A stretch of DNA of 64,000 nt from a virus, in UHGV virus genome UHGV-1370141; one strand, given 5' to 3'. The position numbers were made by a program, and so were the translations under genes. The notes beneath the pieces are model-generated. The model made no database searches, was not told where the DNA came from, and saw only the letters and a program-made list of their open reading frames with translations. Below, in pieces: positions 1 to 11,752 of this stretch. Positions within the stretch are counted from its first letter, which is position 1. The number at the start of each line of letters is the position of its first letter.

Positions 1-1
1 A

Positions 2-133
2 TGTTCAGGTTGCTCTAGTTCATGTTCTGGAGGCTGCACGGGGACATGTATAGGCCAATGTACGACTACATGTACAGGTACATGTAGTCGTACCTGTCAT
101 GGTGGCTGTTCACAATCGTGTACGGGAAGATAA
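2..133 (+). CDS. Cys-rich SCIFF/ranthipeptide-like precursor peptide, C-terminal fragment (5' end outside window)
   Basis: Frame 2 translates to ...CSGCSSSCSGGCTGTCIGQCTTTCTGTCSRTCHGGCSQSCTGR with stop at 131-133; 11 Cys, mostly CX3C spacing; lies just upstream of a second Cys-rich peptide and two radical SAM genes. Confidence 0.45.
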   Translation, partial: CSGCSSSCSGGCTGTCIGQCTTTCTGTCSRTCHGGCSQSCTGR

Positions 134-136
134 GAA

Positions 137-346
137 ATGATAAGTCTTAAAAACATACGCGACAGATTAGTAACGGCAGAAGGGTACATTACCACAGCAG
201 GAGCAAACAACTATATTGCAAACCAAGGTACAGTGTCATCTACTAATAACCTTTCTGGTTTACCGTTGAGTCACTATAACTGTAACGGTGGGTGTAGCTG
301 GTCCTGTAGCGGTAGTTGTAGCCGTGGTGCTGGCGGTAGTAAGTAG
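137..346 (+). CDS. Cys-rich precursor-like peptide (leader plus CX3C-repeat core)
   Basis: 69-aa ORF; the C-terminal core NCNGGCSWSCSGSCSRGAGGSK has four Cys at CX3C spacing after a ~47-aa Cys-free leader; same strand and immediately upstream of the radical SAM pair. Confidence 0.5.
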   Translation: MISLKNIRDRLVTAEGYITTAGANNYIANQGTVSSTNNLSGLPLSHYNCNGGCSWSCSGSCSRGAGGSK

Positions 347-369
347 TAGAAACGTGTCAGAGGTATTCA

Positions 370-1257
370 ATGAAAAACGATTTACATTTAGCATATAACA
401 CTACATTTAACCATCCTTTGCAAATCTCTTCTCCAGATTCTGTACGTTATCATTTAAGTGATGACGTTCGTTTAATTACCATGCTACCTGGCGAATGGCC
501 GAAATTACGGGGCCGTGATATCGTCAACCGTGATAATATCTCCGTAGAAAATACTTTTACAATTCGTGATCTGCCGGTCGAACGTGTGATTGTTTTTACA
601 GGAGATGATGAACTTTATGGAATGATTGTTGATGGTAAATACTTCTTCAGTGACGGGGTTTTAAATGCTGGTAGCGATTTAGAACTTTTTTTTACACCGT
701 TTGCTGAGCTTGACGCTAAGCCTATGGTTCGCAGATGGTGGAGTCCAGATTACATGGGGGCTTTTCCGTATTACTATACTCTTGTTGGTAAGGATGTTGA
801 AGAGTATTCCGATAGTGAACCATACACCAACATTGAAGGTTATCAGGACCTCGGAATTGCACATTTAGCTGATTTAATGGCTTATAGCTATAAGTTCGAA
901 TGGATTCGTGAACGTTCTGTTTGGAAAGCCATTACTGACGACCATGTTATTACGAAACGTATTCGTAAACCATGGATGCAACATCTTGTTCAAATACGAT
1001 TTGGCCAAAGTCCAGTAACCGAGGCTGATATTTCTAAACTTGTTAGTTTTTTATTGTCTAAGGTTGAATTGACTGATGAAGAAGCCGAAGCTGTTAAGCC
1101 GATGCTTGATCGTATTGTGACCTTAGAAGACCTCAAAAGAATGAATAGTCGTTATAACGATCTTAATCGGTTGCTAGAGGCGTATAATTCGACAAAGGTT
1201 TTAAAACCTGGAGTCAATTTCGACGAAGATCCGTTGTTCGCTATCGACTATAATTAA
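370..1257 (+). CDS. hypothetical protein, accessory gene of the radical SAM cluster
   Basis: 295-aa ORF with a GAGG RBS before the ATG; sits between the peptides and the radical SAM genes; no recognisable motif. Confidence 0.55.
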   Translation: MKNDLHLAYNTTFNHPLQISSPDSVRYHLSDDVRLITMLPGEWPKLRGRDIVNRDNISVENTFTIRDLPVERVIVFTGDDELYGMIVDGKYFFSDGVLNAGSDLELFFTPFAELDAKPMVRRWWSPDYMGAFPYYYTLVGKDVEEYSDSEPYTNIEGYQDLGIAHLADLMAYSYKFEWIRERSVWKAITDDHVITKRIRKPWMQHLVQIRFGQSPVTEADISKLVSFLLSKVELTDEEAEAVKPMLDRIVTLEDLKRMNSRYNDLNRLLEAYNSTKVLKPGVNFDEDPLFAIDYN

Positions 1258-1264
1258 ATAATTA

Positions 1265-2203
1265 ATGGAGTCACCTGCAATGGCGACCAATGCGGAACCA
1301 AAATTATCAGATCAGTTATTTGACAATCCAACAATATTAGCCGTTATTACTACATCCAAATGTAATCTGGACTGTAGTTTCTGCGGCGGAGCCTATTACA
1401 TGAATCGTGAAGATTCTTCTCGAGAGTTTCAACGTGACCGAATTATGGAGGCGTTAGAAGCTAACCCAACAATCACCGAGATTCAATGGACGGGTGGTGA
1501 GCCTTTGTTAGCCACTCGTAAAATTGAGGCGTTTGTTGACGAGTTAAAAGTAATTCGTCCAGAGCTCAAACATCAGTTATATACCAACGGTTTAAAGATG
1601 CGTAAAACGCATCTCCCGTTGTTAAAACAATTTGATAATGTGTATGTTAGCATCGACGGGTTTGAGTTGTCTGAACGCCCTTTTAAGCGTTTTATTAACG
1701 ATGGTTGCTACGAAGCTTTAGAAGTAATGCATGAGCTTGAAAATGTTCATACATGGGCCGTTTTAACTCGAGAACAGTTGGGTAACAAACGGTGGCATGA
1801 AGACATTATTGAGCTTCATAATGCGATCTATCACTACGGTTATCGTACCATGACGTTGCTGTTAGACGCGAATATGCCAAAACCGTTATCTCCCGATCAC
1901 GTTATGAACTTTATTTACGGGTATTTTAGAATTCAGGAAAATATAGAAAGACTGAATGTTTCCAACTCGAAAAGGTGTGACTATGTCGTAAGCAAAGTTT
2001 TTGATGGTGGGTGTAACGTATGCAGCAATAGTTTATGGTTAAGAGCAGATGGAACCGAATATCAGTTGCAAAATGCCCCGAGATTATTAGAATCGGGATG
2101 TAACCAATTAGCTTGTTCCATCGGGTTAGAAGCCTACGAGTATATTCGACGAGTGGTTATGGCCAACCGTAATAGTGGAGTATTAAATGAACCAAGAAAA
2201 TAA
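1265..2203 (+). CDS. radical SAM enzyme
   Basis: CNLDCSFC (CX3CX2C) motif near the N-terminus and a GGEPLL glycine-rich SAM-binding motif; its end overlaps the start of the next radical SAM gene. Confidence 0.8.
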   Translation: MESPAMATNAEPKLSDQLFDNPTILAVITTSKCNLDCSFCGGAYYMNREDSSREFQRDRIMEALEANPTITEIQWTGGEPLLATRKIEAFVDELKVIRPELKHQLYTNGLKMRKTHLPLLKQFDNVYVSIDGFELSERPFKRFINDGCYEALEVMHELENVHTWAVLTREQLGNKRWHEDIIELHNAIYHYGYRTMTLLLDANMPKPLSPDHVMNFIYGYFRIQENIERLNVSNSKRCDYVVSKVFDGGCNVCSNSLWLRADGTEYQLQNAPRLLESGCNQLACSIGLEAYEYIRRVVMANRNSGVLNEPRK

Positions 2204-3509
2204 TTACCCGAAACAGTTGACTTACCAGATTGTTACAAACTTGTCGTGTAATTTGGACTGTGAGTATTGTTACGAGCGTAAATATCCCCGCAATAACAAA
2301 GCAGCAGATATTGTAGATTTTCTTCATGCCTGTTTCGAGCGTGATAAAGATTTACCAAACGTAGAAGTCGTCATTGACATTATCGGCGGCGAGCCGTTTA
2401 TGCAGCCTAAGCTTCTAATGGCCGCTTTCGAAACAGCCGAGCAGTTGTGTGAAGAACATAAACGCCCGTTTATGTTTAGTATCTCTACTAATGGGACATT
2501 ATTAGATAGGCCGTTGAACAGGGAAATTATTGAACGTTGGAAGGACAGACTTTCTATCGGGGTGTCTATTGATGGGTTACCTGAGTCGCACGATAAGTAC
2601 CGTATTTTTACAACGAGTCGCGAAGGTTCTTACGAGGCCGCTGTACGTGGTTACAATTATCTAAAAGAAGTAGGTATCGCGGAGCTTGGGGTTAAAGCGA
2701 CATTTACTTTGGAAACGCTCCCACATTATGCGGCGGGTATGAAATCCCTAATCGATTTGGCTGGAGGTGGAACCATTTCTGGTAACGTAACCTTCGAAGA
2801 CATTATGCCACGGAGTATGGCTACGTCGATAGCGCTACAAATGATGGATGTAGTCGATTATTGGGTTGAAAAGGGTTTACACACCAACCCACGTAATACC
2901 CTATCACATATCATCCCGGAAGGGTTAGATTTCGACACTATCTGGGAACCGAACTGGCGGGATCAGCTACTTTACAACGATACTGTACGTTTAAACCCGG
3001 AACGCTTGCGTCCGTTCTGCGGGACATTAACTCACATGACTTGTTTAGGGTTTGACAGGAAGATTTTCGGTTGTAACCGTTTCATGTCGACTGTAACGTC
3101 ACGTTCTGCGGTATTTGAGTTAGTCGGTCGTGAGTTTGTTAGCTTAGACGGTGGGAAACTGCTGGAAGAGATTCAGACGCAATACACCAACTATCCTGAG
3201 ACGTGCTTAGGTTGTCCGATGAAACACGCTTGTGGTAGCTGTGCAGCAGCTTCCTACGAGAATGGGGAAGGGACGTTAGAAGACCGTAAAGCGTATCACG
3301 CTGAACGTCGTCAATGTGGTTGGACAACTGCAAAATTAATGGTCGCGGAATACTGGAAACAGAAGATGGGTACAACATCTGTGAAGGATTTCCACGATAA
3401 TAGCATGTGTTACTGCCCTCGCTGTGTACGTGAACGTGCCCAAAAAGAAAAACAATTGAGAGAAGCCAAAGATGAAGCCAATTCTGATCCACAATATTAC
3501 GAAGCGTAA
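2187..3509 (+). CDS. radical SAM enzyme with SPASM/twitch-like C-terminal Cys cluster (peptide-maturase-like)
   Basis: CNLDCEYC (CX3CX2C) and GGEPFM motifs; the C-terminal region holds extra Cys clusters (CLGCPMKHACGSC, CYCPRC) as in SPASM-domain maturases. Confidence 0.8.
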   Translation: MNQENNYPKQLTYQIVTNLSCNLDCEYCYERKYPRNNKAADIVDFLHACFERDKDLPNVEVVIDIIGGEPFMQPKLLMAAFETAEQLCEEHKRPFMFSISTNGTLLDRPLNREIIERWKDRLSIGVSIDGLPESHDKYRIFTTSREGSYEAAVRGYNYLKEVGIAELGVKATFTLETLPHYAAGMKSLIDLAGGGTISGNVTFEDIMPRSMATSIALQMMDVVDYWVEKGLHTNPRNTLSHIIPEGLDFDTIWEPNWRDQLLYNDTVRLNPERLRPFCGTLTHMTCLGFDRKIFGCNRFMSTVTSRSAVFELVGREFVSLDGGKLLEEIQTQYTNYPETCLGCPMKHACGSCAAASYENGEGTLEDRKAYHAERRQCGWTTAKLMVAEYWKQKMGTTSVKDFHDNSMCYCPRCVRERAQKEKQLREAKDEANSDPQYYEA

Positions 3510-4044
3510 ATTCCGTTTTCTGGAAAAGTTTTTAGAAACTACGAAACTGTTTGGCTGTTATGTGCAGATTAACGGCGAAGATTTCAATGACGATGTTAAG
3601 CGTTTATTAATTCGTCACGGAATCACCGTTGTTATCCCGATGTATTGTACAGAACTTACCGAACTTTCTGTGGCCGAAATCGAGAAACAAAATCCAGGCT
3701 TTGAACAGCGCGTGCTGGAATTTCCTAAACATAAAATCGTTCTTTTACGCCGCGCTTTGCAAGAGCCGAGCGTTGAATCTGTTGCTGCTCTAGGTTTATC
3801 GTTTCCTGGTGTGACAATTTATGTCACACGAAACCCAGAGTCCACCATCGATGGTTTTTACGATGAAAGGGAAACTTTTCATAGTTTAGTTTATCCCGAG
3901 CTTACAGAAGACGAACGTCAAGGACTACATATTGACTGGGACTCAAATTTTGATAGTAAGTTTCGTAAAATCGATTTTGATCTTCTGATCGAGCTGGGTT
4001 TAATTAAAGGAGAAGACGAATGCCTGCTCTTGACAAAAGCTTAA
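3472..4044 (+). CDS. hypothetical protein
   Basis: 190-aa ORF overlapping the end of the SPASM gene, same strand; no motif recognised. Confidence 0.5.
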   Translation: MKPILIHNITKRKFRFLEKFLETTKLFGCYVQINGEDFNDDVKRLLIRHGITVVIPMYCTELTELSVAEIEKQNPGFEQRVLEFPKHKIVLLRRALQEPSVESVAALGLSFPGVTIYVTRNPESTIDGFYDERETFHSLVYPELTEDERQGLHIDWDSNFDSKFRKIDFDLLIELGLIKGEDECLLLTKA

Positions 4045-4694
4045 TAAACGAAGATATTCGCGCCAGATTTTTTAGCCGACTTTCCCCAATTGATCGCCAC
4101 GGAAACTTTTTGGGTCATATAGGTACTGAAGATCGCGGCAGAACGGGTTTTTGTACAATGCTTCATTACAAACTACTCGATGGCATGTCCGATGAAGACG
4201 CGTTAGATCAAATGCGTAGTTACAATATGTCAGATATTGAAGCAAATTTCACCCTGAAAAAAGCAAAAGAGTTCATTTCAGATGTATTGGAGATAGATCT
4301 GGATGAAATTCGAAGTAACGTTCGTTCAACAGCACGATATATTTATTTAGATGTTCAAAAGATCATGAAGGCGTTGGAGTCGCGTTACGAAGCAGAACGT
4401 TACGAACCAATTCAGCTGAATGATCGTCATTTTCAGGCTGATGCAATCTCCCGACAAATGTTAGGGCAATATATCCAATCTGAAACTGCGCCAGAATATT
4501 GGTTGGATACCGCCAATACGCGTTTAGAACCCTTTACATTAGAAGAATGTAAGGAACTATTGTCCGAGATCGTAAAACGTGATCAGAAACTGCATGGACA
4601 AATGACCGCGCAGAAAAAAGAGCTTCGCCTCTTAGCTGAACAGCGTGACTACGACACTATCCGTGCACTTGCACTGGAAATGGGATTAGAATAA
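4020..4694 (+). CDS. hypothetical protein
   Basis: 224-aa ORF, last gene of the plus-strand cluster, followed by a strong terminator hairpin. Confidence 0.5.
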   Translation: MPALDKSLINEDIRARFFSRLSPIDRHGNFLGHIGTEDRGRTGFCTMLHYKLLDGMSDEDALDQMRSYNMSDIEANFTLKKAKEFISDVLEIDLDEIRSNVRSTARYIYLDVQKIMKALESRYEAERYEPIQLNDRHFQADAISRQMLGQYIQSETAPEYWLDTANTRLEPFTLEECKELLSEIVKRDQKLHGQMTAQKKELRLLAEQRDYDTIRALALEMGLE

Positions 4695-4698
4695 AAAA

Positions 4699-4742
4699 TA
4701 CCTACCTCCGTAAAGGAGGTAGGTAAACTTATTATTTTTTTG
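4699..4742. terminator. bidirectional rho-independent terminator
   Basis: Inverted repeat tacctacctcc-gtaaa-ggaggtaggta flanked by an A-run upstream and a T-run downstream, between convergent genes ending at 4694 (+) and 4764 (-). Confidence 0.7.
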
Positions 4743-4763: not shown

Positions 4764-5294
4764 TTAAGCAGTAAAACCGTCCAATTCACCGTTGGTGGTG
4801 GCCAGGTCAATACGATTATCGACAACCTTCGGTGTAATTACGAAAGTTGCCATTACACCCGGTTTATAACGGAGGTTCTGTTCAGTAACGGTGCACGTCA
4901 CGGTACGCAGAGTGACGTTTTCATGTTCGTCTTTCTGGTCTTCGGTGCTGTACACAACGTCACCTGGCGCGATAGCGTCGTCAGGTTTTACTTTGTTGAT
5001 GTAATATTGTAACCAAGCGCGGAGTTCGTTTTCTTGAACCCAGCGAGACAGATCATCAGTTAGTTCAATCCGTCCTACAACACCTGGCTCCAGACGATCG
5101 TAATGCAGTTCGATTGCACCTTTGAAATTCTCAGAACCTGGTAGTGCAGTCATGGTAACTTTGGTATTCTTACTTTCGCCTTCCAGCGCAGTAGGGAGAC
5201 CAAAGGACACTTCTTTATCAGTAATCTGATGTGGTAGCTCAGTGTTAGCAGCATTATAAAGCGCGACCAACATCATCTGGTTAGTAGCGGCCAT
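4764..5294 (-). CDS. hypothetical protein, probably abundant virion protein
   Basis: 176-aa ORF with codon usage that looks strongly biased; C-terminus ...GELDGFTA is shared with the upstream paralog. Confidence 0.55.
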   Translation of the reverse strand: MAATNQMMLVALYNAANTELPHQITDKEVSFGLPTALEGESKNTKVTMTALPGSENFKGAIELHYDRLEPGVVGRIELTDDLSRWVQENELRAWLQYYINKVKPDDAIAPGDVVYSTEDQKDEHENVTLRTVTCTVTEQNLRYKPGVMATFVITPKVVDNRIDLATTNGELDGFTA

Positions 5295-5365: not shown

Positions 5366-5938
5366 TTAGCCACCGACACCCGGCGCAGTGAAGCCATCAA
5401 GTTCACCTTCCAGACCGCCCAGTGCTACCTTCTCAGGAGCTGGGTTGGAATAAGTGAAAGTAGCAATAGTACCCGCCAGGAATTTAATGTGGCCATCGTT
5501 TACTTTGACAGTGTAAACTTTAGCACCGCTGTCGCCTTCGGATTTAACGATAGTGAGTTCGCTCTCTGCAAACGCGTCATCGACATAACCTTTAGTAACC
5601 ATTTCTTTGTTCAGTTTGGTTACAATGGCAGAGTTTTCCAGATCGAGACTACCAGCTTGTTCGTAAGCTTTAGCACCGATCAGGTCTTGGGATGCCAGAC
5701 GGATATAATGGAATTCTTTCTCGCCTTTGAAGTTCTGGCTTTCTGCCTTGGCGGTCAGTGTAATTTTGGTGTTACGACCAGCGTCTCCGCTGTGCGCTTC
5801 GACAGCACCAAAATCGACATCACCAACCGTCAGATTAGAAGCGGTTGCAGAGTTTTTAGCAATTACAGCTTCGATGAGCTGTTGTTTGAAGGCTTTAGCC
5901 ATCTTTTTTACCTCGTAAGTGGTAGGGGTGGATTGCAT
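5366..5938 (-). CDS. hypothetical protein, paralog of 4764..5294
   Basis: 190-aa ORF ending ...LEGELDGFTAPGVGG; similar central NFKG..HY.RL block; biased codons. Confidence 0.55.
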   Translation of the reverse strand: MQSTPTTYEVKKMAKAFKQQLIEAVIAKNSATASNLTVGDVDFGAVEAHSGDAGRNTKITLTAKAESQNFKGEKEFHYIRLASQDLIGAKAYEQAGSLDLENSAIVTKLNKEMVTKGYVDDAFAESELTIVKSEGDSGAKVYTVKVNDGHIKFLAGTIATFTYSNPAPEKVALGGLEGELDGFTAPGVGG

Positions 5939-6560: not shown

Positions 6561-6640
6561 TCCGTAGAACGCGCTAGAACGCGTTCTAAGACGGTTTATA
6601 CAAAATAAGGTACAATCATCCTAAGTTTCGGTTTACGCGC

Positions 6641-7156
6641 TTAGATTTTAACTAAGGCGCTCCAATCGATAGGGCTTTGTTTCACGACTTTCGCAGTACC
6701 GCGATTCGGTGACCAGAACGTGATATTCGGTTGGTTACGAACGTCGATATGCAACCAACTGATGTCGCATTCGATAAAGTGAATAAACGGAAACTCATCA
6801 GGATTAGCGGCAATATAATCGTGGACTTGTTTTACCGTTGAATCTAACAGTGTCGCGTCGAACGCATTACCGAACTTGTGCTGACTCCCTGAATCGGAAT
6901 AGAGTTGTAACGCACGTTGTTTATAGTTACCGCCCTTAGGCTTTTCTTGATTGATGAAAAAGTCTAAGGTTCTTAGGCCACGCTGTTGCGCAGCAGACGA
7001 GTTAATCACCATTCTGCCGAAACGGTTACGAATCTGTTGCAGCGAAATCATTAACAACGGGTTCATAAACCGAATTGCAGAATCACCGTATTTGGCGATG
7101 TACGATTGCGGTACTAACTCTTTGAGTTTAAAGTTACTCGGATTTGGATGAAACAT
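6641..7156 (-). CDS. peptidase M15 family (VanY-like D,D- or L,D-peptidase) cell-wall hydrolase
   Basis: SQHKFGNAFD matches the SxHxxGxAxD zinc-binding signature of M15 peptidases; 171 aa. Confidence 0.6.
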   Translation of the reverse strand: MFHPNPSNFKLKELVPQSYIAKYGDSAIRFMNPLLMISLQQIRNRFGRMVINSSAAQQRGLRTLDFFINQEKPKGGNYKQRALQLYSDSGSQHKFGNAFDATLLDSTVKQVHDYIAANPDEFPFIHFIECDISWLHIDVRNQPNITFWSPNRGTAKVVKQSPIDWSALVKI

Positions 7157-7808
7157 CTTCCCTCCCAGACAGAAAAGCCCGTTTGATGTTCAGGTATTTG
7201 ACATTAACGGGACAACCTGTGGTGATATCAACACGTTCGTGGTCAGGAATAGCAGGCTCCTTAAACTCACGAACGAACAAATAGTTTCGATTGTAATCTA
7301 ACGTACGGTAATCGTTAGTGGTATAAGACGGCTTCGCGTTAGGGTCTACGTAAGCATCCCAACCGAACCCCGCCACGGCTTTATAAAACGTTTGGCAGAT
7401 ATACGGTGAGATTTCCAACGACTGCATAATACGCAGGAATGTTAAGTCAGAGAACTCTTTATCGATAATACGCGAAACGTTACCACCCGGTGTCATGGGA
7501 TAGCTACGCTCCGTGTTACATTTTTGATAGAGTAAGTCGTGAATGCAGGCCGCAGGTGCCCACGGTCCGTCAGGATGGAAAATTCCCTGGAGGTGTTCAG
7601 GAATTGACGCTAAATCGGTAACGAACCCTTTCGGTGCTGTTAACCACAGTTGCGTGTCAGGCAATACACCCGTTAAATAAACCGCACGGTCTAAGTGTAC
7701 GTGGTCGTGATAAATCTCACGTAACGTAAACGGATAATGGTAATCCTCCGTTAATACAAACCACTTATTGTCTAAACGTTTATATTGAAGCTTCTCCATT
7801 ACCCACAC
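7134..7808 (-). CDS. hypothetical protein (DUF1353-like)
   Basis: 224-aa ORF containing FVTDLASIP...HD..Y, which resembles the DUF1353 signature; the family assignment is from memory. Confidence 0.45.
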   Translation of the reverse strand: MWVMEKLQYKRLDNKWFVLTEDYHYPFTLREIYHDHVHLDRAVYLTGVLPDTQLWLTAPKGFVTDLASIPEHLQGIFHPDGPWAPAACIHDLLYQKCNTERSYPMTPGGNVSRIIDKEFSDLTFLRIMQSLEISPYICQTFYKAVAGFGWDAYVDPNAKPSYTTNDYRTLDYNRNYLFVREFKEPAIPDHERVDITTGCPVNVKYLNIKRAFLSGREDVSSKSE

Positions 7809-7915
7809 CTTTCCTTACAAAAACCAGAAGAACTCTTGCCCACGCTTTTCGTCTTTACGTTTTCGACCAGACGTTAACGCTTTCCACAATAACGCTAAGA
7901 GTTTAGCAAACCAGT

Positions 7916-8506
7916 TCATTTTACTAACCCCGCTTTTACCGCATAATCTGCCATTTCTCTGAAGACGCGGCCGTACCAACCGTAGGTGTATTTCTCGTTT
8001 CTCTTACGTTTTTCGGAGATTTCCGTGTAGTAAGTTACTTGGTGCGAGATTAACGCAAAGATTAAAATGCTCAACCCTTCATCTTTACGATATTTCAGGT
8101 AGGCGTTCAACGCACCCAGTGTCTTAGGACCCATACCGCCGTCGGTGTCAATATCTGCGTAAAGTTTCCCTTCGTTATTTAAAACGTTGAGAATACGTTG
8201 TAACGATTTCACACAGTTAGCACGCCCTGCGTTAATACCAAAATCAAACATCCGGTCTGCGAGTAACGGTGAGATAGCGAAAATCTCATCAAGTTTGAGC
8301 TTCTTCCACCAACCGCGATCGTAAATATCAAACGCTTGTGCACGGGTGAGGTCTTTCATTTTCCCTGTGTAGCCGTATTCGCGTGCAGTAGTTAAAGTTA
8401 CACCGTGACAGGTTTCTCCACCTTTGTCGTCAGGGTCGTTGACGTACCCGCCTTCTAAATCCGTTTTGGATTCAATAATACCTTCTTTAGTCCAACGTTC
8501 AGCCAT
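7916..8506 (-). CDS. GH108-family lysozyme with peptidoglycan-binding domain (endolysin-like)
   Basis: N-terminal EGGYVNDPDDKGGETCHGVT matches the glycoside hydrolase 108 signature; the C-terminal region resembles PG_binding_3. Confidence 0.7.
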   Translation of the reverse strand: MAERWTKEGIIESKTDLEGGYVNDPDDKGGETCHGVTLTTAREYGYTGKMKDLTRAQAFDIYDRGWWKKLKLDEIFAISPLLADRMFDFGINAGRANCVKSLQRILNVLNNEGKLYADIDTDGGMGPKTLGALNAYLKYRKDEGLSILIFALISHQVTYYTEISEKRKRNEKYTYGWYGRVFREMADYAVKAGLVK

Positions 8507-8569: not shown

Positions 8570-9049
8570 TTATTTTTTCTTCTTAGCGCGTGATGGCTTA
8601 GCTGGCGGTGTTTCAACAGCCGGTTTACGTGCAACACGCACTGTAAAACCACCAACCCAGGTCAGACACTCAGGACGGAAGAAAATACCGTGTTCGATTG
8701 CGCTACCGTCCAACGGTAACTCACCAACCTGTTCTACCCATACATCGTCTTCTGTAAGGGTTAGGCTATACTGTTCGTTAATTACGGGCAGTAGGTCAGC
8801 GGTAGTCGTTGCAGACTCCACTAACAGTTTCGGTAATACGTTCAGGAAATACAAACCTGCGTCAATGCGGTTATACTGGAACGTTTGTTCGTTAGTGTAA
8901 CCGAGATTCTTAATTGACGCAACTGTGATTTCGGTATTGTACGTACCGGTGGTTACGACCGGGTCACCCAGCGTGACTTTGGTGGTGTCGAACTCAGCGT
9001 CTGGGTTAGCCTTTTTAATAAGGTCGAAGATAGTTTCTTGATTGGTCAT
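8570..9049 (-). CDS. hypothetical protein
   Basis: 159-aa ORF in the minus-strand block, lysine-rich C-terminus; no motif. Confidence 0.5.
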   Translation of the reverse strand: MTNQETIFDLIKKANPDAEFDTTKVTLGDPVVTTGTYNTEITVASIKNLGYTNEQTFQYNRIDAGLYFLNVLPKLLVESATTTADLLPVINEQYSLTLTEDDVWVEQVGELPLDGSAIEHGIFFRPECLTWVGGFTVRVARKPAVETPPAKPSRAKKKK

Positions 9050-9062
9050 TACTGTAATCCTC

Positions 9063-9911
9063 TTAATCTAAGAATCCCGGTAAGACCGGATTAGTCTGCG
9101 CTAATTCAATCTTCGACTTCGGACGATCGGTGCCGTTAAAGTGGATTAACAGATTACCGGTCAGGTTAGAACACAGCGGGCTGAGCGTCAGCACCAACAC
9201 ACGCGTGAACTTCGTATTTGCGCCTTCGTAACCTGCGGTTGGACCATCGTAAATAATCTTCGCACCATACAGGTTGTTAGCCGCGTTCTTAGGTACACTT
9301 ACCCATTTCTCATCAACGACGTTAGCCAGTTTAGTGGCTAACTCAGCCAGGTCGACGGTGTCGTTGATAGTAATCGGGTCAAGGTAATCTTTTTCTGCGG
9401 TGAAATCAATCGGGTGAGAATAAACCGCAGCGTTACCTTTCTTAGTAGACGGATACTCTACCAGATTCTCTAATTGAGTAACTGGTAACAGTTCAGTCAG
9501 GTCAATAGGATCACGCAGCGTAAGTGTTACTACACCGCACCACTCGTAAGATTTCTCGTTAGCGGTAAGCTGATGGGTTTCACCTTCAACTTTTGCGTCA
9601 ACGATATCCGAGGGTAAAATATTTAGGTTGTATTTTGCGTTAATCGCATTAAGCAAATCCGATGCGGTTACCACACTGTCGTTACCGAACACCAACTCAC
9701 CGGTTAGGTAGTCAGGTAAATTACGACGGTGGTAAGTCACGGTTAAAGTAGTAGACTCATCGCCTTTGAGTTTAGAGGTCAGAACCACCTGGGTATCAAC
9801 CCCAGTACCGGTAGGTTCTCCGATATCAACATCACTGAAAGTCAACGGTGGACTAATATTGTTTTCAGTGTTGATGAGTTTTAGCAGTTTCTGTTTTGAC
9901 GTAAGAGACAT
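9063..9911 (-). CDS. hypothetical protein
   Basis: 282-aa ORF, tightly spaced with the downstream gene; no motif. Confidence 0.5.
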   Translation of the reverse strand: MSLTSKQKLLKLINTENNISPPLTFSDVDIGEPTGTGVDTQVVLTSKLKGDESTTLTVTYHRRNLPDYLTGELVFGNDSVVTASDLLNAINAKYNLNILPSDIVDAKVEGETHQLTANEKSYEWCGVVTLTLRDPIDLTELLPVTQLENLVEYPSTKKGNAAVYSHPIDFTAEKDYLDPITINDTVDLAELATKLANVVDEKWVSVPKNAANNLYGAKIIYDGPTAGYEGANTKFTRVLVLTLSPLCSNLTGNLLIHFNGTDRPKSKIELAQTNPVLPGFLD

Positions 9912-10585: not shown

Positions 10586-11752
10586 TTAACGACGTTTTTG
10601 ACAATTAGGGCAGTTGCAACCTACGCCAGAAGATATTTCTCTAAAGTACGCGTCGAGTAAGTGCTCGTTATTATTAAGAAAACGAACTGACCACAAGTCA
10701 CGCAGATGAGTTTTTAACTTTCCAATAATACCGGGTTCATAGTTGAGTAGAATGGTAAGTGCGTTGTCTGTGTAAGTCCACTGACGGACTTTCTCAGGAA
10801 ACCAACGAGTGATATCACGCATAAACGTATCGGCATCTTCTTTCCCAATAGCAGTGATTGTCAGAAGACGTAGACGGTTGTTAACAAACTCATCAATGAG
10901 ACTATGAATTTCTTCTTCAAAAGCAATGTTCCACCATTTCCATTTAAAGGTGAGTTTTTCGCCCTCGAGTTTGGTCTCTACCTTGGTAGAATAGAATGCT
11001 GTCAAAGTGTCATTAATCGCTTCGGCATCTGGACCAGTGTATGTAAAGGCTTTCAACACATCGGACTCTTCACGCGGTTGCTCCCCTTCTTCGAGTTGGT
11101 TAAGAAAAATTTTCTTTGTTAACTTACGCATACAGATGTTCAATTGATTAATAACAACAGGGTCATTATCAACAATCACTGTTAAAGTATCGCCAACATA
11201 ATTAGACTGGCGAATTTTCTCCTTGTGTTCGTGAACAACTATACGCATGAATTCGTCCGCTTCACCTTTTCCGATACCTTGAAACGAAATAAGACGAACG
11301 GTGTCGTTATCGATCATCTCAGCGACAGAACGTACTTCTTCCATGAGGTTACGATCGTCTTTCTTCAATCGAACGACGAGTTTGCTGTTATCCCAGTAAA
11401 TGCCTAAATCGTCGGGATAGAAGGTCTCTAACGCCTCTTTAATATCCTTAATCTTTTCGCCTTCGTACCAGAGGACGTGCGGTTCGTCTTTCTGCTGCTC
11501 TTCGACTTTCGGTTGTTCAGTCTCGGCCGTTTCTACCGGGTTGAGCAACTCACCGATTTCCACCGCGATAGTGTCGCAAAGATAATCGTTGCAGTGAGTC
11601 CAGTAGAACACGATGCTTTCATCATTGACCTGCTCTACGCGGAAATGTACACCTTTATCCAGGAATATACGATAAAGTTGATCGAGTAACTGTGCTTCAG
11701 GAACCGGACGGATTTCGGTTTTAACGAGCGGTGTAATCTCGATATTATACAT
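10586..11752 (-). CDS. hypothetical protein with internal duplicated ~60-aa domain
   Basis: 388 aa; two internal repeats (..ISFQGIGKGEADEFMRIVVHEHKEKIRQ.. and ..TITAIGKEDADTFMRDITRWFPEKVRQ..); C-terminal CNCPNC. Confidence 0.5.
   Translation of the reverse strand: MYNIEITPLVKTEIRPVPEAQLLDQLYRIFLDKGVHFRVEQVNDESIVFYWTHCNDYLCDTIAVEIGELLNPVETAETEQPKVEEQQKDEPHVLWYEGEKIKDIKEALETFYPDDLGIYWDNSKLVVRLKKDDRNLMEEVRSVAEMIDNDTVRLISFQGIGKGEADEFMRIVVHEHKEKIRQSNYVGDTLTVIVDNDPVVINQLNICMRKLTKKIFLNQLEEGEQPREESDVLKAFTYTGPDAEAINDTLTAFYSTKVETKLEGEKLTFKWKWWNIAFEEEIHSLIDEFVNNRLRLLTITAIGKEDADTFMRDITRWFPEKVRQWTYTDNALTILLNYEPGIIGKLKTHLRDLWSVRFLNNNEHLLDAYFREISSGVGCNCPNCQKRR

What the first reader, a model, noticed from the sequence alone, without database searches (positions are those of the whole stretch)
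2..346. Two tandem precursor-like peptides with strictly periodic CX3C cores
The first (truncated) peptide ends with 11 Cys spaced almost perfectly every fourth residue, interleaved with Gly/Ser/Thr. The second has a ~47-aa Cys-free leader then four Cys at CX3C spacing. Such periodicity is unusual for globular proteins and suggests serial crosslinks or metal binding.
Basis: seen in the sequence. Interest (0 to 1): 0.7.

Follow-up and report, generated by a model that had tools for sequence, protein, structure and literature searches.

The report
Radical-SAM-matured cysteine-repeat phage fibre proteins
These are two real small genes of a giant (jumbo) phage whose products carry a cysteine every fourth residue. 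They are almost certainly substrates of two radical-SAM enzymes encoded just downstream. In related phages the same cysteine-repeat module is the end of true tail fibres, which points to an undescribed enzyme-made modification of a virus particle part.

Summary
Window 2-133 encodes the last 43 residues (11 Cys, nine CX3C spacings) of a 132-aa protein. Window 137-346 encodes a complete 69-aa protein with a 48-aa Cys-free N-terminus and four Cys at CX3C.

Both belong to a trio of tandem CXXX-repeat genes (P1, P2, P3) conserved in SPN3US-like jumbo phages. All three are under strong purifying selection and are mostly mis- or un-annotated in public records.

Directly downstream, on the same strand, lie:
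- a 295-aa accessory protein of novel fold;
- a small radical-SAM enzyme;
- a radical-SAM/SPASM enzyme.

The SPASM enzyme's best curated match is the "CXXX-repeat target" maturase family TIGR04115, at 120 bits against a 350-bit cut-off. Its closest solved relative is the thioether-forming enzyme CteB.

In 76 of 80 viral loci holding relatives of this enzyme, a CXXX-repeat ORF lies on the same strand. In the closest non-jumbo relatives the repeat is the C-terminus of genuine tail fibres, and the accessory and rSAM genes follow it, in the P2-like cases where P2 has its fibre-assembly chaperone gene.

Best reading: these are radical-SAM cross-linked (probably thioether-laddered) fibre-type proteins, not diffusible RiPP antibiotics. 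The chemistry and the virion location are inferred, not shown.

The parts
2..133 (+). 3' end of gene P2, a CXXX-repeat protein, cut off by the window edge. The full protein is 132 aa in the near-identical contig L007 (7549-7947). Stop codon at 131-133.
   Evidence: Translation. Full ORF in L007. Window 1-656 is identical to L007. TIGR04114 hit at 24 bits against a cut-off of 20. phrog_6085 hit by the SPN3US orthologue of this protein. Purifying selection.
137..346 (+). Gene P3: a complete 69-aa protein with a 48-aa Cys-free N-terminal part and a short core, C-NGG-C-SWS-C-SGS-C. This is the 'junction motif only' version of the family.
   Evidence: ORF and translation. phrog_6085 at E 1.5e-24. 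dN/dS about 0.05 against SPN3US and pEa_SNUABM_29. 23 representative relatives, mostly 61-70 aa.
370..1257 (+). Accessory protein, 295 aa (SPN3US gp165 family, phrog_8030). It travels with the CXXX gene and the rSAM genes in other phages too. Its role is inferred: substrate-handling or assembly partner.
1265..2203 (+). Small radical-SAM enzyme, 312 aa (SPN3US gp164 family). It has the CX3CX2C motif plus three conserved C-terminal Cys, which suggests one auxiliary cluster.
   Evidence: Pfam Radical_SAM at E 7e-14. Alignment A3: C33/C37/C40, GGEPL, C250/C253/C279. 31% identity to the L009 partner enzyme.
2187..3509 (+). Radical-SAM/SPASM maturase, 440 aa (SPN3US gp163 family), with no N-terminal RRE domain. 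It is the probable enzyme acting on the CXXX repeats.
   Evidence: Best NCBIfam hits are TIGR04115 at 119.8 bits (cut-off 350) and PapB at 113 bits. Invariant CX3CX2C plus 7 invariant SPASM Cys. Closest solved structure is CteB 5wgg at E 7e-33. A same-strand CXXX ORF is present in 76 of 80 viral loci with relatives.
3472..4044 (+). 190-aa protein of unknown function (phrog_7988, SPN3US gp162 family). It overlaps the end of the SPASM gene and is specific to the jumbo-phage version of the cassette.
   Evidence: Absent from the Deferribacter prophage L009 module. Not listed in the SPN3US virion proteome.
4020..4694 (+). DUF4376 protein, 224 aa (SPN3US gp161 family). It is the last gene of the co-oriented block.
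   Evidence: Pfam DUF4376 at E 1e-6. phrog_8169. Weak hits to tail-fibre and virion PHROGs.
4699..4725 (.). Terminator-like hairpin that can be read on both strands (11-bp stem, 5-nt loop). It has A-rich and T-rich flanks, lies between convergent genes, and closes the block.
   Evidence: L007 12513-12539, which equals window 4699-4725. Sequence read.

Best explanation
The two ORFs are the second and third of three tandem genes (P1 130 aa, P2 132 aa, P3 69 aa) for Cys-every-fourth-residue proteins of an SPN3US-like jumbo phage.

**How they are probably matured**
- They are translated and then used as substrates by the cassette encoded directly downstream: an accessory protein of novel fold, a small radical-SAM enzyme, and a radical-SAM/SPASM enzyme.
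- The SPASM enzyme is related to the CXXX-repeat maturases (TIGR04115), PapB and CteB.
- The most likely chemistry is serial radical formation of thioether (S-C) cross-links along the C-[S/T/G]-[G/S]-[G/S/T] repeats. This would turn a floppy Gly/Ser/Thr-rich stretch into a rigid, protease- and reduction-resistant ladder.

**What the product probably is**
- In related phages the same junction motif (Y-x-C-x2-3-C-S-W-T-C) and repeat form the C-terminal end of true tail fibres.
- In the P2-like relatives the accessory and rSAM genes there follow the fibre gene, where phage P2 has its fibre-assembly chaperone gene.
- The products are therefore most likely small fibre-type components, or fibre tips, of the baseplate/fibre apparatus rather than exported RiPP antibiotics.

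**Status of each step**
- Shown: the genes are real, the cassette is conserved, and it is associated with tail modules and tail-fibre fusions.
- Inferred: substrate-enzyme pairing, thioether chemistry, virion location.
For: **Real genes**
- Third-position substitution bias and dN/dS 0.03-0.17.
- P1 keeps exactly 21 Cys in all 12 genomes examined, despite saturated dS.

**Conserved cassette**
- The order [P1][P2][P3][accessory][rSAM][rSAM/SPASM][190 aa][DUF4376] is kept in Seoulvirus, Erskinevirus, Derbicusvirus and Wellingtonvirus.

**Enzyme type**
- Best curated hits are TIGR04115 and PapB.
- The enzyme has a full SPASM Cys set.
- Its nearest solved structure is the thioether synthase CteB at E 7e-33, ahead of anSME at 1e-15.

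**Enzyme-substrate association**
- 76 of 80 viral loci with relatives carry a same-strand CX2-4C chain of 8 or more Cys.
- Only 1 of 80 loci with generic rSAM/SPASM genes does.

**Fusion to tail fibres**
- L096 5049-6203 has Pfam Phage_tail_fib at E 1.8e-40 plus a C-terminal CXXX repeat.
- It lies in the order baseplate V-W-J-I / fibre-CXXX / accessory / rSAM-SPASM / rSAM / tail assembly chaperone / sheath.
- L097 has central tail fibre J, two short ORFs, fibre-CXXX, phrog_8030 accessory, rSAM, rSAM/SPASM.
- The Deferribacter prophage L009 has the same four-gene module after a GpJ-like tail protein.
- Further ~200-aa fibre-like proteins share an invariant junction motif.
- The two ORFs upstream of the module in 117 non-identical cases hit tail, baseplate, tail-fibre or virion-structural PHROGs.

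**Context in this phage**
- The block follows homologues of SPN3US gp168 (baseplate/fibre candidate) and gp167 (virion protein). Sources: PMC5105663 and PMC5694885.
- gp161-166 are not in the SPN3US virion proteome, as expected for enzymes and chaperones.
Against: - There are no chemical data. The SPASM enzyme scores far below the curated cut-offs of every family: 120 against 350 for TIGR04115, and 113 against 340 for PapB.
- The repeats have no conserved acceptor residue. There is no Asp/Glu as in PapA, and Ser/Thr/Gly interchange, so the linkage type is a guess.
- The jumbo-phage proteins lack the N-terminal attachment domains of the fibre-fused relatives. They match only the last ~50 residues of the shaft plus the repeat.
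- Their presence in virions has never been tested, because the ORFs were absent from the SPN3US search database.
- AF2 gives no confident fold for a P2 homologue, pLDDT 42.
- The accessory protein shows no RRE-like or chaperone-like fold.
- The role of the second rSAM is unknown.
Confidence: 0.55

Rival explanations
1. Classical RiPP natural product. The N-terminal ~48 residues are a true leader. The rSAM enzymes cross-link the core, the leader is cut off, and a small diffusible Cys-laddered peptide is released at lysis. Its role could be as a toxin against competing bacteria or phages, a signal, or a metallophore.
For: - The proteins are small, with a Cys-free N-terminus and a Cys-rich C-terminus.
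- The adjacent enzymes are rSAM/SPASM enzymes of the RiPP-maturase type.
- Three paralogous 'precursors' in tandem is typical of RiPP clusters.
- The jumbo-phage versions lack any virion-attachment domain.
Against: - No peptidase, exporter or immunity gene was recognised among the cassette's own proteins; the flanking genes give virion-structural, tail-chaperone or lysis hits.
- The SPASM enzyme has no RRE.
- The closest non-jumbo relatives have the same motif and repeat fused to 200-400-aa tail-fibre proteins, which cannot be leaders.
- The module always sits in tail/baseplate gene blocks.
- The exact Cys number of P1 is conserved, suggesting a defined structural length.
Confidence: 0.15
2. 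Same substrates, different chemistry. The rSAM enzymes do not make thioethers but something else. Candidates are Cys to formylglycine or another Cys oxidation (anSME-like), epimerisation, or a cross-link involving the invariant Trp/Phe of the C-x3-C-S-W junction.
For: - anSME is the second-closest solved relative.
- There are two different rSAM enzymes per cassette.
- An aromatic residue is nearly invariant in the junction, and it is all that remains in the 2-Cys P3 of Derbicusvirus and Wellingtonvirus.
- No conserved thioether acceptor is present.
Against: - The closest characterised relatives by profile are thioether formers: CteB at E 7e-33 against anSME at 1e-15, and PapB second in NCBIfam.
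- The sheer density of Cys fits a sulfur-based link best.
- L095 and L096 fibres lack the Trp, yet L096 still has the small rSAM.
Confidence: 0.15
3. The repeats are an unmodified metal-binding or disulfide-rich domain: metallothionein-like, or a thiolate-metal stack inside a trimeric fibre. On this view the neighbouring rSAM enzymes act on another target.
For: - Regular CX3C/CX2C spacing with small residues resembles metal-thiolate proteins.
- From my own knowledge, fibre tips of other phages (T4 gp37, gp12) use metal ions.
- No modification has been demonstrated.
Against: - CXXX ORFs co-occur tightly with this rSAM/SPASM clade on the same strand, in 76 of 80 loci against 1 of 80 controls.
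- This holds across very different phages, including enzymes that pass the curated 'CXXX-repeat target' model at 433-498 bits.
- No other candidate substrate is conserved in the module.
Confidence: 0.1
4. Low-complexity artefact. On this view the Cys frame is not translated, and the real genes are the alternative-frame or opposite-strand ORFs annotated in several GenBank records.
For: Several public records annotate other frames or the opposite strand over P1 and P2.
Against: - Third-position bias and low dN/dS occur only in the Cys frame.
- The N-terminal regions and Cys columns are conserved across four genera.
- The proteins hit TIGR04114 and phrog_6085.
- The three genes are closely spaced, each opening with ATG or GTG in the Cys frame.
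Confidence: 0.02

Closest known systems
NCBIfam TIGR04115 / TIGR04114: 'radical SAM peptide maturase, CXXX-repeat target family' and its Cys-rich repeat target. I know these only as computationally defined families; I found no experimental paper.
   Same: - An RRE-less rSAM/SPASM enzyme sits next to a protein with long CXXX repeats.
- The window's truncated P2 passes TIGR04114, at 24 bits against a cut-off of 20.
- TIGR04115 is the enzyme's best hit.
- True TIGR04115 members in viral contigs (433-498 bits) also lie beside baseplate/tail genes.
   Different: - The window enzyme scores 120 bits against a cut-off of 350 and ties with PapB, so it belongs to a sister clade.
- This clade adds a second, smaller rSAM and a phrog_8030 accessory protein.
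- Its substrates carry a specific Y-x-C-x2-3-C-S-W-T-C junction.
- In the jumbo phages there are three short paralogous substrates.
PapB / PapA (freyrasin, a ranthipeptide). Chemistry from my own knowledge: Cys S to Asp C-beta thioethers in six CX3D motifs.
   Same: - A short SPASM enzyme, second-best NCBIfam hit at 113 bits.
- The substrate has a Cys repeated with i to i+4 periodicity.
- Many small rings are made serially.
   Different: - The score is below the PapB cut-off of 340.
- The cores contain no Asp or Glu acceptors.
- The substrates are 69-132 aa, or are fused to 200-400-aa fibres.
- The genomic setting is a phage tail module.
CteB / SCIFF (CteA). From my own knowledge: a Cys-to-Thr C-gamma thioether, with the substrate Cys binding auxiliary cluster I.
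   Same: Closest solved structure by profile: 5wgg at E 7e-33, covering the rSAM and SPASM domains. The substrate is Cys-rich.
   Different: - The window enzyme lacks CteB's ~100-residue N-terminal RRE.
- The SCIFF model scores only 55 bits against a cut-off of 425.
- SCIFF peptides have 6 Cys in about 45 aa and are housekeeping in Clostridia, not phage-borne.
QhpD / QhpC of quinohemoprotein amine dehydrogenase. From my own knowledge: an rSAM/SPASM enzyme installs several Cys-Asp/Glu thioethers in a small structural subunit.
   Same: This is a functional analogy. rSAM cross-links rigidify a small protein that then becomes a permanent part of a larger assembly, rather than a secreted natural product.
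   Different: The sequence relationship is weak: 58 bits against a cut-off of 453. The acceptors differ, and QhpC is a periplasmic enzyme subunit, not a virion part.
Phage tail-fibre assembly chaperones (P2 gpG, lambda Tfa, T4 gp38/gp57A). From my own knowledge.
   Same: They share the genomic slot directly after the fibre gene (L096 and L100 have the P2-like order). The presumed role is also shared: maturing the distal end of a fibre.
   Different: Here the slot holds two radical enzymes and a protein of novel fold. This implies covalent chemistry rather than folding assistance alone. A DUF1353 'tail assembly chaperone' is present in addition.

Membership tests
TIGR04115 CXXX-repeat-target rSAM maturase | Whole-protein score at or above the curated cut-off (350 bits) | tested here: not met
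   119.8 bits for window 2187-3509. Group-B viral enzymes reach 433-498 bits.
TIGR04115 CXXX-repeat-target rSAM maturase | CX3CX2C radical-SAM motif plus a complete SPASM Cys set, with no RRE | tested here: met
   C21/C25/C28 and C278, C296, C340, C343, C349, C352, C377 are invariant in 20 homologues. The match to the profile begins at residue 10.
TIGR04115 CXXX-repeat-target rSAM maturase | Encoded next to a CXXX-repeat protein | tested here: met
   Window 2-346 lies upstream on the same strand. 76 of 80 related viral loci show this, against 1 of 80 controls.
TIGR04114 Cys-rich (CXXX) repeat target | Score at or above the cut-off (20 bits) | tested here: met
   Truncated P2 of the window scores 24.0 bits. 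SPN3US P1, P2 and P3 score 19.6, 17.1 and 13.7, borderline or below. The window's P3 gave no hit.
PapB-type ranthipeptide system | Enzyme at or above 340 bits on NF047865 | tested here: not met
   113.1 bits.
PapB-type ranthipeptide system | Core with CX3(D/E) acceptor motifs | tested here: not met
   There is no Asp or Glu between the Cys residues. Positions x1-x3 are S/T/G, G/S and G/S/T.
SCIFF / CteB system | Enzyme at or above 425 bits on TIGR03974, with an N-terminal RRE | tested here: not met
   55.2 bits. The alignment to CteB starts at CteB residue 105, so there is no RRE.
Sactipeptide / ranthipeptide (chemical definition) | A Cys S to C-alpha (sacti) or C-beta/gamma (ranthi) thioether in the mature product | not testable with these tools
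   This needs MS/MS and NMR of the modified protein.
RiPP (general) | Leader peptide removed by a protease, and product exported | tested here: inconclusive
   No peptidase or transporter family was found among the cassette's own proteins in Pfam, NCBIfam or PHROGs; neighbouring genes give virion, tail-chaperone or lysis hits. Host proteases cannot be excluded.
Phage tail fibre / fibre-associated virion protein | Gene lies in the baseplate/tail-fibre module | tested here: met
   The genes lie downstream of homologues of SPN3US gp168 and gp167, which are baseplate/fibre candidates and virion proteins. Related modules follow baseplate or central-fibre genes.
Phage tail fibre / fibre-associated virion protein | Recognisable fibre or attachment domain in the protein itself | tested here: not met
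   P2 and P3 have no Pfam domain. Only relatives have one: L096 Phage_tail_fib at E 1.8e-40, and L095/L100 hit tail-fibre PHROGs.
Phage tail fibre / fibre-associated virion protein | Protein detected in purified virions | not testable with these tools
   The ORFs are missing or mis-framed in the SPN3US annotation used for proteomics.

The most novel reading that the evidence does not exclude
Radical-SAM 'RiPP-type' chemistry is used to build a structural part of virus particles. On this reading, a covalently cross-linked Cys-ladder module forms the distal end of tail fibres, or of small accessory fibres. The module is widespread in myo- and siphoviruses of very different hosts, and in SPN3US-like jumbo phages it is split off as three stand-alone proteins. 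The accessory protein (phrog_8030, novel fold) and the two rSAM enzymes would then be a new kind of enzymatic fibre-maturation machinery, encoded (in the P2-like relatives) where P2 has its fibre-assembly chaperone gene.
Probability: 0.45. Interest if true: 0.85.

Novelty: new variant of a known kind. Interest (0 to 1): 0.72.

Why it matters
- **New use of known chemistry.** The CXXX-repeat/rSAM pairing exists, as far as I could find, only as computational family definitions. Neither the chemistry nor the biological role is known. This finding ties the pairing to phage tail-fibre modules and to true fibre fusions. That would be a new class of post-translational modification in virions, and a new use of RiPP-type enzymes.
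- **Explains unexplained genes.** It gives a purpose to the unexplained 'radical SAM superfamily proteins 1 and 2' of SPN3US-like jumbo phages.
- **Fixes annotation.** It shows that two or three conserved genes are missing or mis-framed in many public phage records, including the genetic model SPN3US.
- **Makes the question testable.** The tools are at hand: SPN3US amber genetics, existing virion MS data, and co-expression in E. coli.
- **Possible applications.** Knowing the modification could matter for host-range and adsorption biology, and for engineering very stable fibres.

Tried and rejected
- **Bacterial genome scan** with the enzyme alignment. The patterns were generic to rSAM/SPASM enzymes, and all 80 loci returned were unrelated maturases. 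They served only as a negative control.
- **AF2 model of a P2 homologue, P0170.** pLDDT 42, so uninformative.
- **Promoter scan.** Matches were at chance level.
- **Literature searches.** Queries on CXXX repeat/rSAM, TIGR04115, SPN3US plus radical SAM, and tail fibre plus SPASM found nothing relevant. The Haft & Basu 2011 paper is not held.
- **Search for gp167-like proteins in the other loci.** Local phmmer and hmmsearch found none, although 6 upstream neighbours hit phrog_2163.
- **Small rSAM and the CSW junction.** I considered that the small rSAM is tied to this junction. I rejected it as a clean rule because L096 has the enzyme but no Trp.
- **Campylobacter and Vibrio phage rSAM hits.** These are only generic N-terminal rSAM similarity, at 29% coverage.

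Full report
**1. The observation**

Window 2-133 (+) translates to CSGCSSSCSGGCTGTCIGQCTTTCTGTCSRTCHGGCSQSCTGR*. It has 11 Cys, one CX2C spacing and nine CX3C spacings.

Window 137-346 (+) is a complete 69-aa ORF. Its first Cys is at residue 49, and the core is NCNGGCSWSCSGSCSRGAGGSK.

Cys makes up 1.2% of residues in the window's long ORFs. Eleven or more Cys in 43 residues has a probability of about 3e-12, even ignoring the periodicity. The description is accurate and far beyond chance.

**2. These are real genes, and the first one is short**

The SPASM enzyme encoded at 2187-3509 is 100% identical to a protein on a 225-kb metagenomic phage contig. That contig, L007, is identical to the window over window positions 1-656. 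I use it as a proxy for the missing upstream sequence.

In L007 the truncated ORF is a 132-aa protein (7549-7947), here called P2. Upstream of it lie:
- an extra rSAM paralogue (6576-7487);
- a 130-aa CXXX protein, P1 (6159-6551);
- a ~400-aa virion structural protein;
- a 1727-aa protein.

Three tandem CXXX genes (P1, P2, P3) are found at the same place in several phages:
- SPN3US;
- Erwinia phages pEa_SNUABM_29, Asesino, Kwan and EarlPhillipIV;
- Cronobacter phage CR5.

Codon-level comparison shows that differences concentrate at third positions. dN/dS is 0.03-0.17 where dS is not saturated, and the Cys columns are conserved apart from short indels in the C-terminal repeats. P1 has exactly 21 Cys in all 12 genomes examined.

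Public annotation is often wrong here:
- SPN3US gp166 is a mis-framed call over P2, and P1 and P3 are not annotated.
- pEa_SNUABM_29, CR5, Kwan and Asesino carry opposite-strand or wrong-frame calls.

**3. The cassette**

Downstream on the same strand, tightly packed, are five genes:
- a 295-aa protein (phrog_8030);
- a 312-aa radical-SAM enzyme;
- a 440-aa radical-SAM/SPASM enzyme;
- a 190-aa protein (phrog_7988);
- a DUF4376 protein.

A strong hairpin at 4699-4725, between convergent genes, closes the block.

*The SPASM enzyme*
- It has CX3CX2C plus seven invariant SPASM Cys and no N-terminal RRE.
- Its best curated hits are TIGR04115, 'CXXX-repeat target family' (119.8 bits, cut-off 350), and PapB (113 bits, cut-off 340).
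- The closest solved structure to a profile of the family is the thioether synthase CteB (E 7e-33). anSME follows at 1e-15.

*The small rSAM*
- It has three conserved C-terminal Cys, which suggests one auxiliary cluster.

*The accessory protein*

**4. Related loci change the interpretation**

*Association with CXXX ORFs.* Outside the jumbo-phage clade, relatives of the SPASM enzyme were collected from viral contigs. In 76 of 80 such loci an ORF with a chain of 8 or more Cys at CX2-4C spacing lies on the same strand. Among unrelated rSAM/SPASM loci from bacterial genomes the figure is 1 of 80.

*Closest relatives.* In the relatives at 34-40% identity, the repeat is the C-terminal part of genuine tail fibres.
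- L096 5049-6203 carries the Pfam tail-collar fibre N-terminal domain (E 1.8e-40).
- It lies in a P2-like order: baseplate V, W, J, I, then fibre-CXXX, accessory protein, rSAM/SPASM, rSAM, tail assembly chaperone, sheath.
- In L097 the order is central tail fibre J, two short ORFs, fibre-CXXX, phrog_8030 accessory, rSAM, rSAM/SPASM.
- A Deferribacter prophage (L009) has the same four-gene module after a GpJ-like protein. Its 302-aa fibre ends in ...GGQAGSYYRCSDCSWTCSSSC... followed by 28 Cys in all.

*Shared junction motif.* Further ~200-aa fibre-like proteins share an invariant junction, Y-x-C-x2-3-C-S-W-T-C. It is preceded by a coiled-coil-like stretch that aligns with the 'leader' of the jumbo-phage proteins.

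*More distant relatives.* Viral enzymes at 24-27% identity pass the TIGR04115 cut-off at 433-498 bits. They sit beside proteins with up to 92 Cys, again next to baseplate and tail genes.

*Upstream neighbours.* I took the two ORFs upstream of the module in 117 non-identical cases. Almost every named PHROG family they hit is tail, baseplate, tail-fibre or virion-structural; the only exceptions are two families labelled 'head protein'.

**5. Context in this phage group**

According to PMC5105663 and PMC5694885:
- SPN3US gp168-170 are baseplate/tail-fibre candidates;
- they are absent from tailless particles.

The supplementary virion proteome of PMC5694885 shows:
- gp167 is a virion protein;
- gp161-166 are not in the virion proteome.

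This fits gp163-165 being maturation factors. The CXXX ORFs themselves were not in the search database, and their cores have almost no tryptic sites. Their presence in virions is therefore simply untested.

**6. Mechanism**

Best-supported reading:
- P1-P3 are substrates of the two rSAM enzymes, with the accessory protein as a handling partner.
- The SPASM enzyme most likely installs serial thioether links along the repeats, whose consensus is C-[S/T/G]-[G/S]-[G/S/T].
- The products are fibre-type virion components.

Shown: gene reality, cassette conservation, tail-module association, and fusion to fibres in relatives.

Inferred: the enzyme-substrate pairing (strong), the virion location of the stand-alone jumbo-phage versions (moderate), and thioether chemistry (weaker).
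- The chemistry inference is weaker because no acceptor residue is conserved.
- The enzyme is also below all curated cut-offs.

Rivals considered:
- a diffusible RiPP;
- different rSAM chemistry, including something at the invariant Trp;
- an unmodified metal-binding domain;
- a non-coding artefact, which is effectively excluded.

**7. Comparison with what is known, and novelty**

The nearest known kind is the computationally defined CXXX-repeat/rSAM system (TIGR04114/TIGR04115). The window's enzyme fails that family's score cut-off and forms a sister clade. This clade has an additional rSAM, a novel accessory protein and a distinct junction motif.

It works most like PapB and CteB (serial Cys thioethers). 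In biological logic it is most like QhpD/QhpC, where rSAM cross-links sit in a small structural subunit. These chemistries are from my own knowledge.

I found no paper on CXXX repeats, on these jumbo-phage rSAM genes' function, or on rSAM-matured tail fibres.

Verdict: a genuine, conserved and mostly unannotated feature, best classed as a new variant of a known (but uncharacterised) kind. There is a substantial chance that it represents a new type of virion maturation.

Noticed in passing
L002 3094-4123 (SPN3US); L001 4098-5120; L004 2145-2950; L005 2127-2953; L003 2097-2890: The CXXX genes are mis-annotated in public records.
- SPN3US gp166/ACQ60_gp100 is a wrong-frame call over P2, and P1 and P3 are absent.
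- pEa_SNUABM_29 00267/00268, CR5_157, Kwan gp183 and Asesino gp186 are opposite-strand calls.
- Kwan gp184 and EarlPhillipIV gp161 are in the wrong frame.
   Followed up: yes
L007 6576-7487 (upstream of the window; paralogue of window 1265-2203): In the contig nearly identical to the window, an extra copy of the small rSAM gene sits between P1 and P2. It shares 60% aa identity with the window copy, and about 75% nt identity with window 1343-1971. The next closest phage (L090, 93% enzyme identity) and SPN3US lack it.
   Followed up: partly
L004 2963-3172, L005 2963-3172, L006 2985-3194: In Derbicusvirus and Wellingtonvirus phages, P3 keeps only two Cys (C-NGS-C-SW-T/S-S/A-SGGAK...). The minimal conserved element of the family is therefore C-x3-C-S-W.
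   Followed up: partly
L102 4786-6228; L160 5775-6578; L163 4909-6021: Some viral contigs encode very large CXXX-repeat proteins, 267-480 aa with 60-92 Cys, next to enzymes that fully pass TIGR04115. In a few loci (L105, L106, L169) the non-Cys domain is C-terminal instead of N-terminal.
   Followed up: partly
window 4764-5294, 5366-5938, 8570-9049, 9063-9911 (all minus strand): There are four paralogous DUF7941 virion-structural-type genes, the first two ending in a shared ...ELDGFTA motif. The SPN3US homologue gp160 is reported at more than 300 copies per capsid (PMC5694885).
   Followed up: no
window 6641-7156, 7134-7808, 7916-8506 (minus strand): Two endolysin-type genes (phrog_894, and GH108 plus PG_binding_3) flank a DUF1353 'tail assembly chaperone' (phrog_1158). 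The same chaperone family lies directly after the rSAM genes in the P2-like locus L096.
   Followed up: partly
window 4699-4725: A perfect 11-bp hairpin with A-rich and T-rich flanks lies between convergent genes. It looks like a bidirectional terminator that closes the fibre/rSAM gene block.
   Followed up: partly
Salmonella phages SPFM1, 5-10, 12, 14, 15, 20: In these records the rSAM, accessory and CXXX genes match only in short fragments. This suggests frameshift-rich assemblies or degraded copies of the cassette.
   Followed up: no
window 10586-11752 (minus strand): A 388-aa ORF with no PHROG hit appears to be internally duplicated. It ends in a short CxC-x2-C motif (GCNCPNCQKRR).
   Followed up: no
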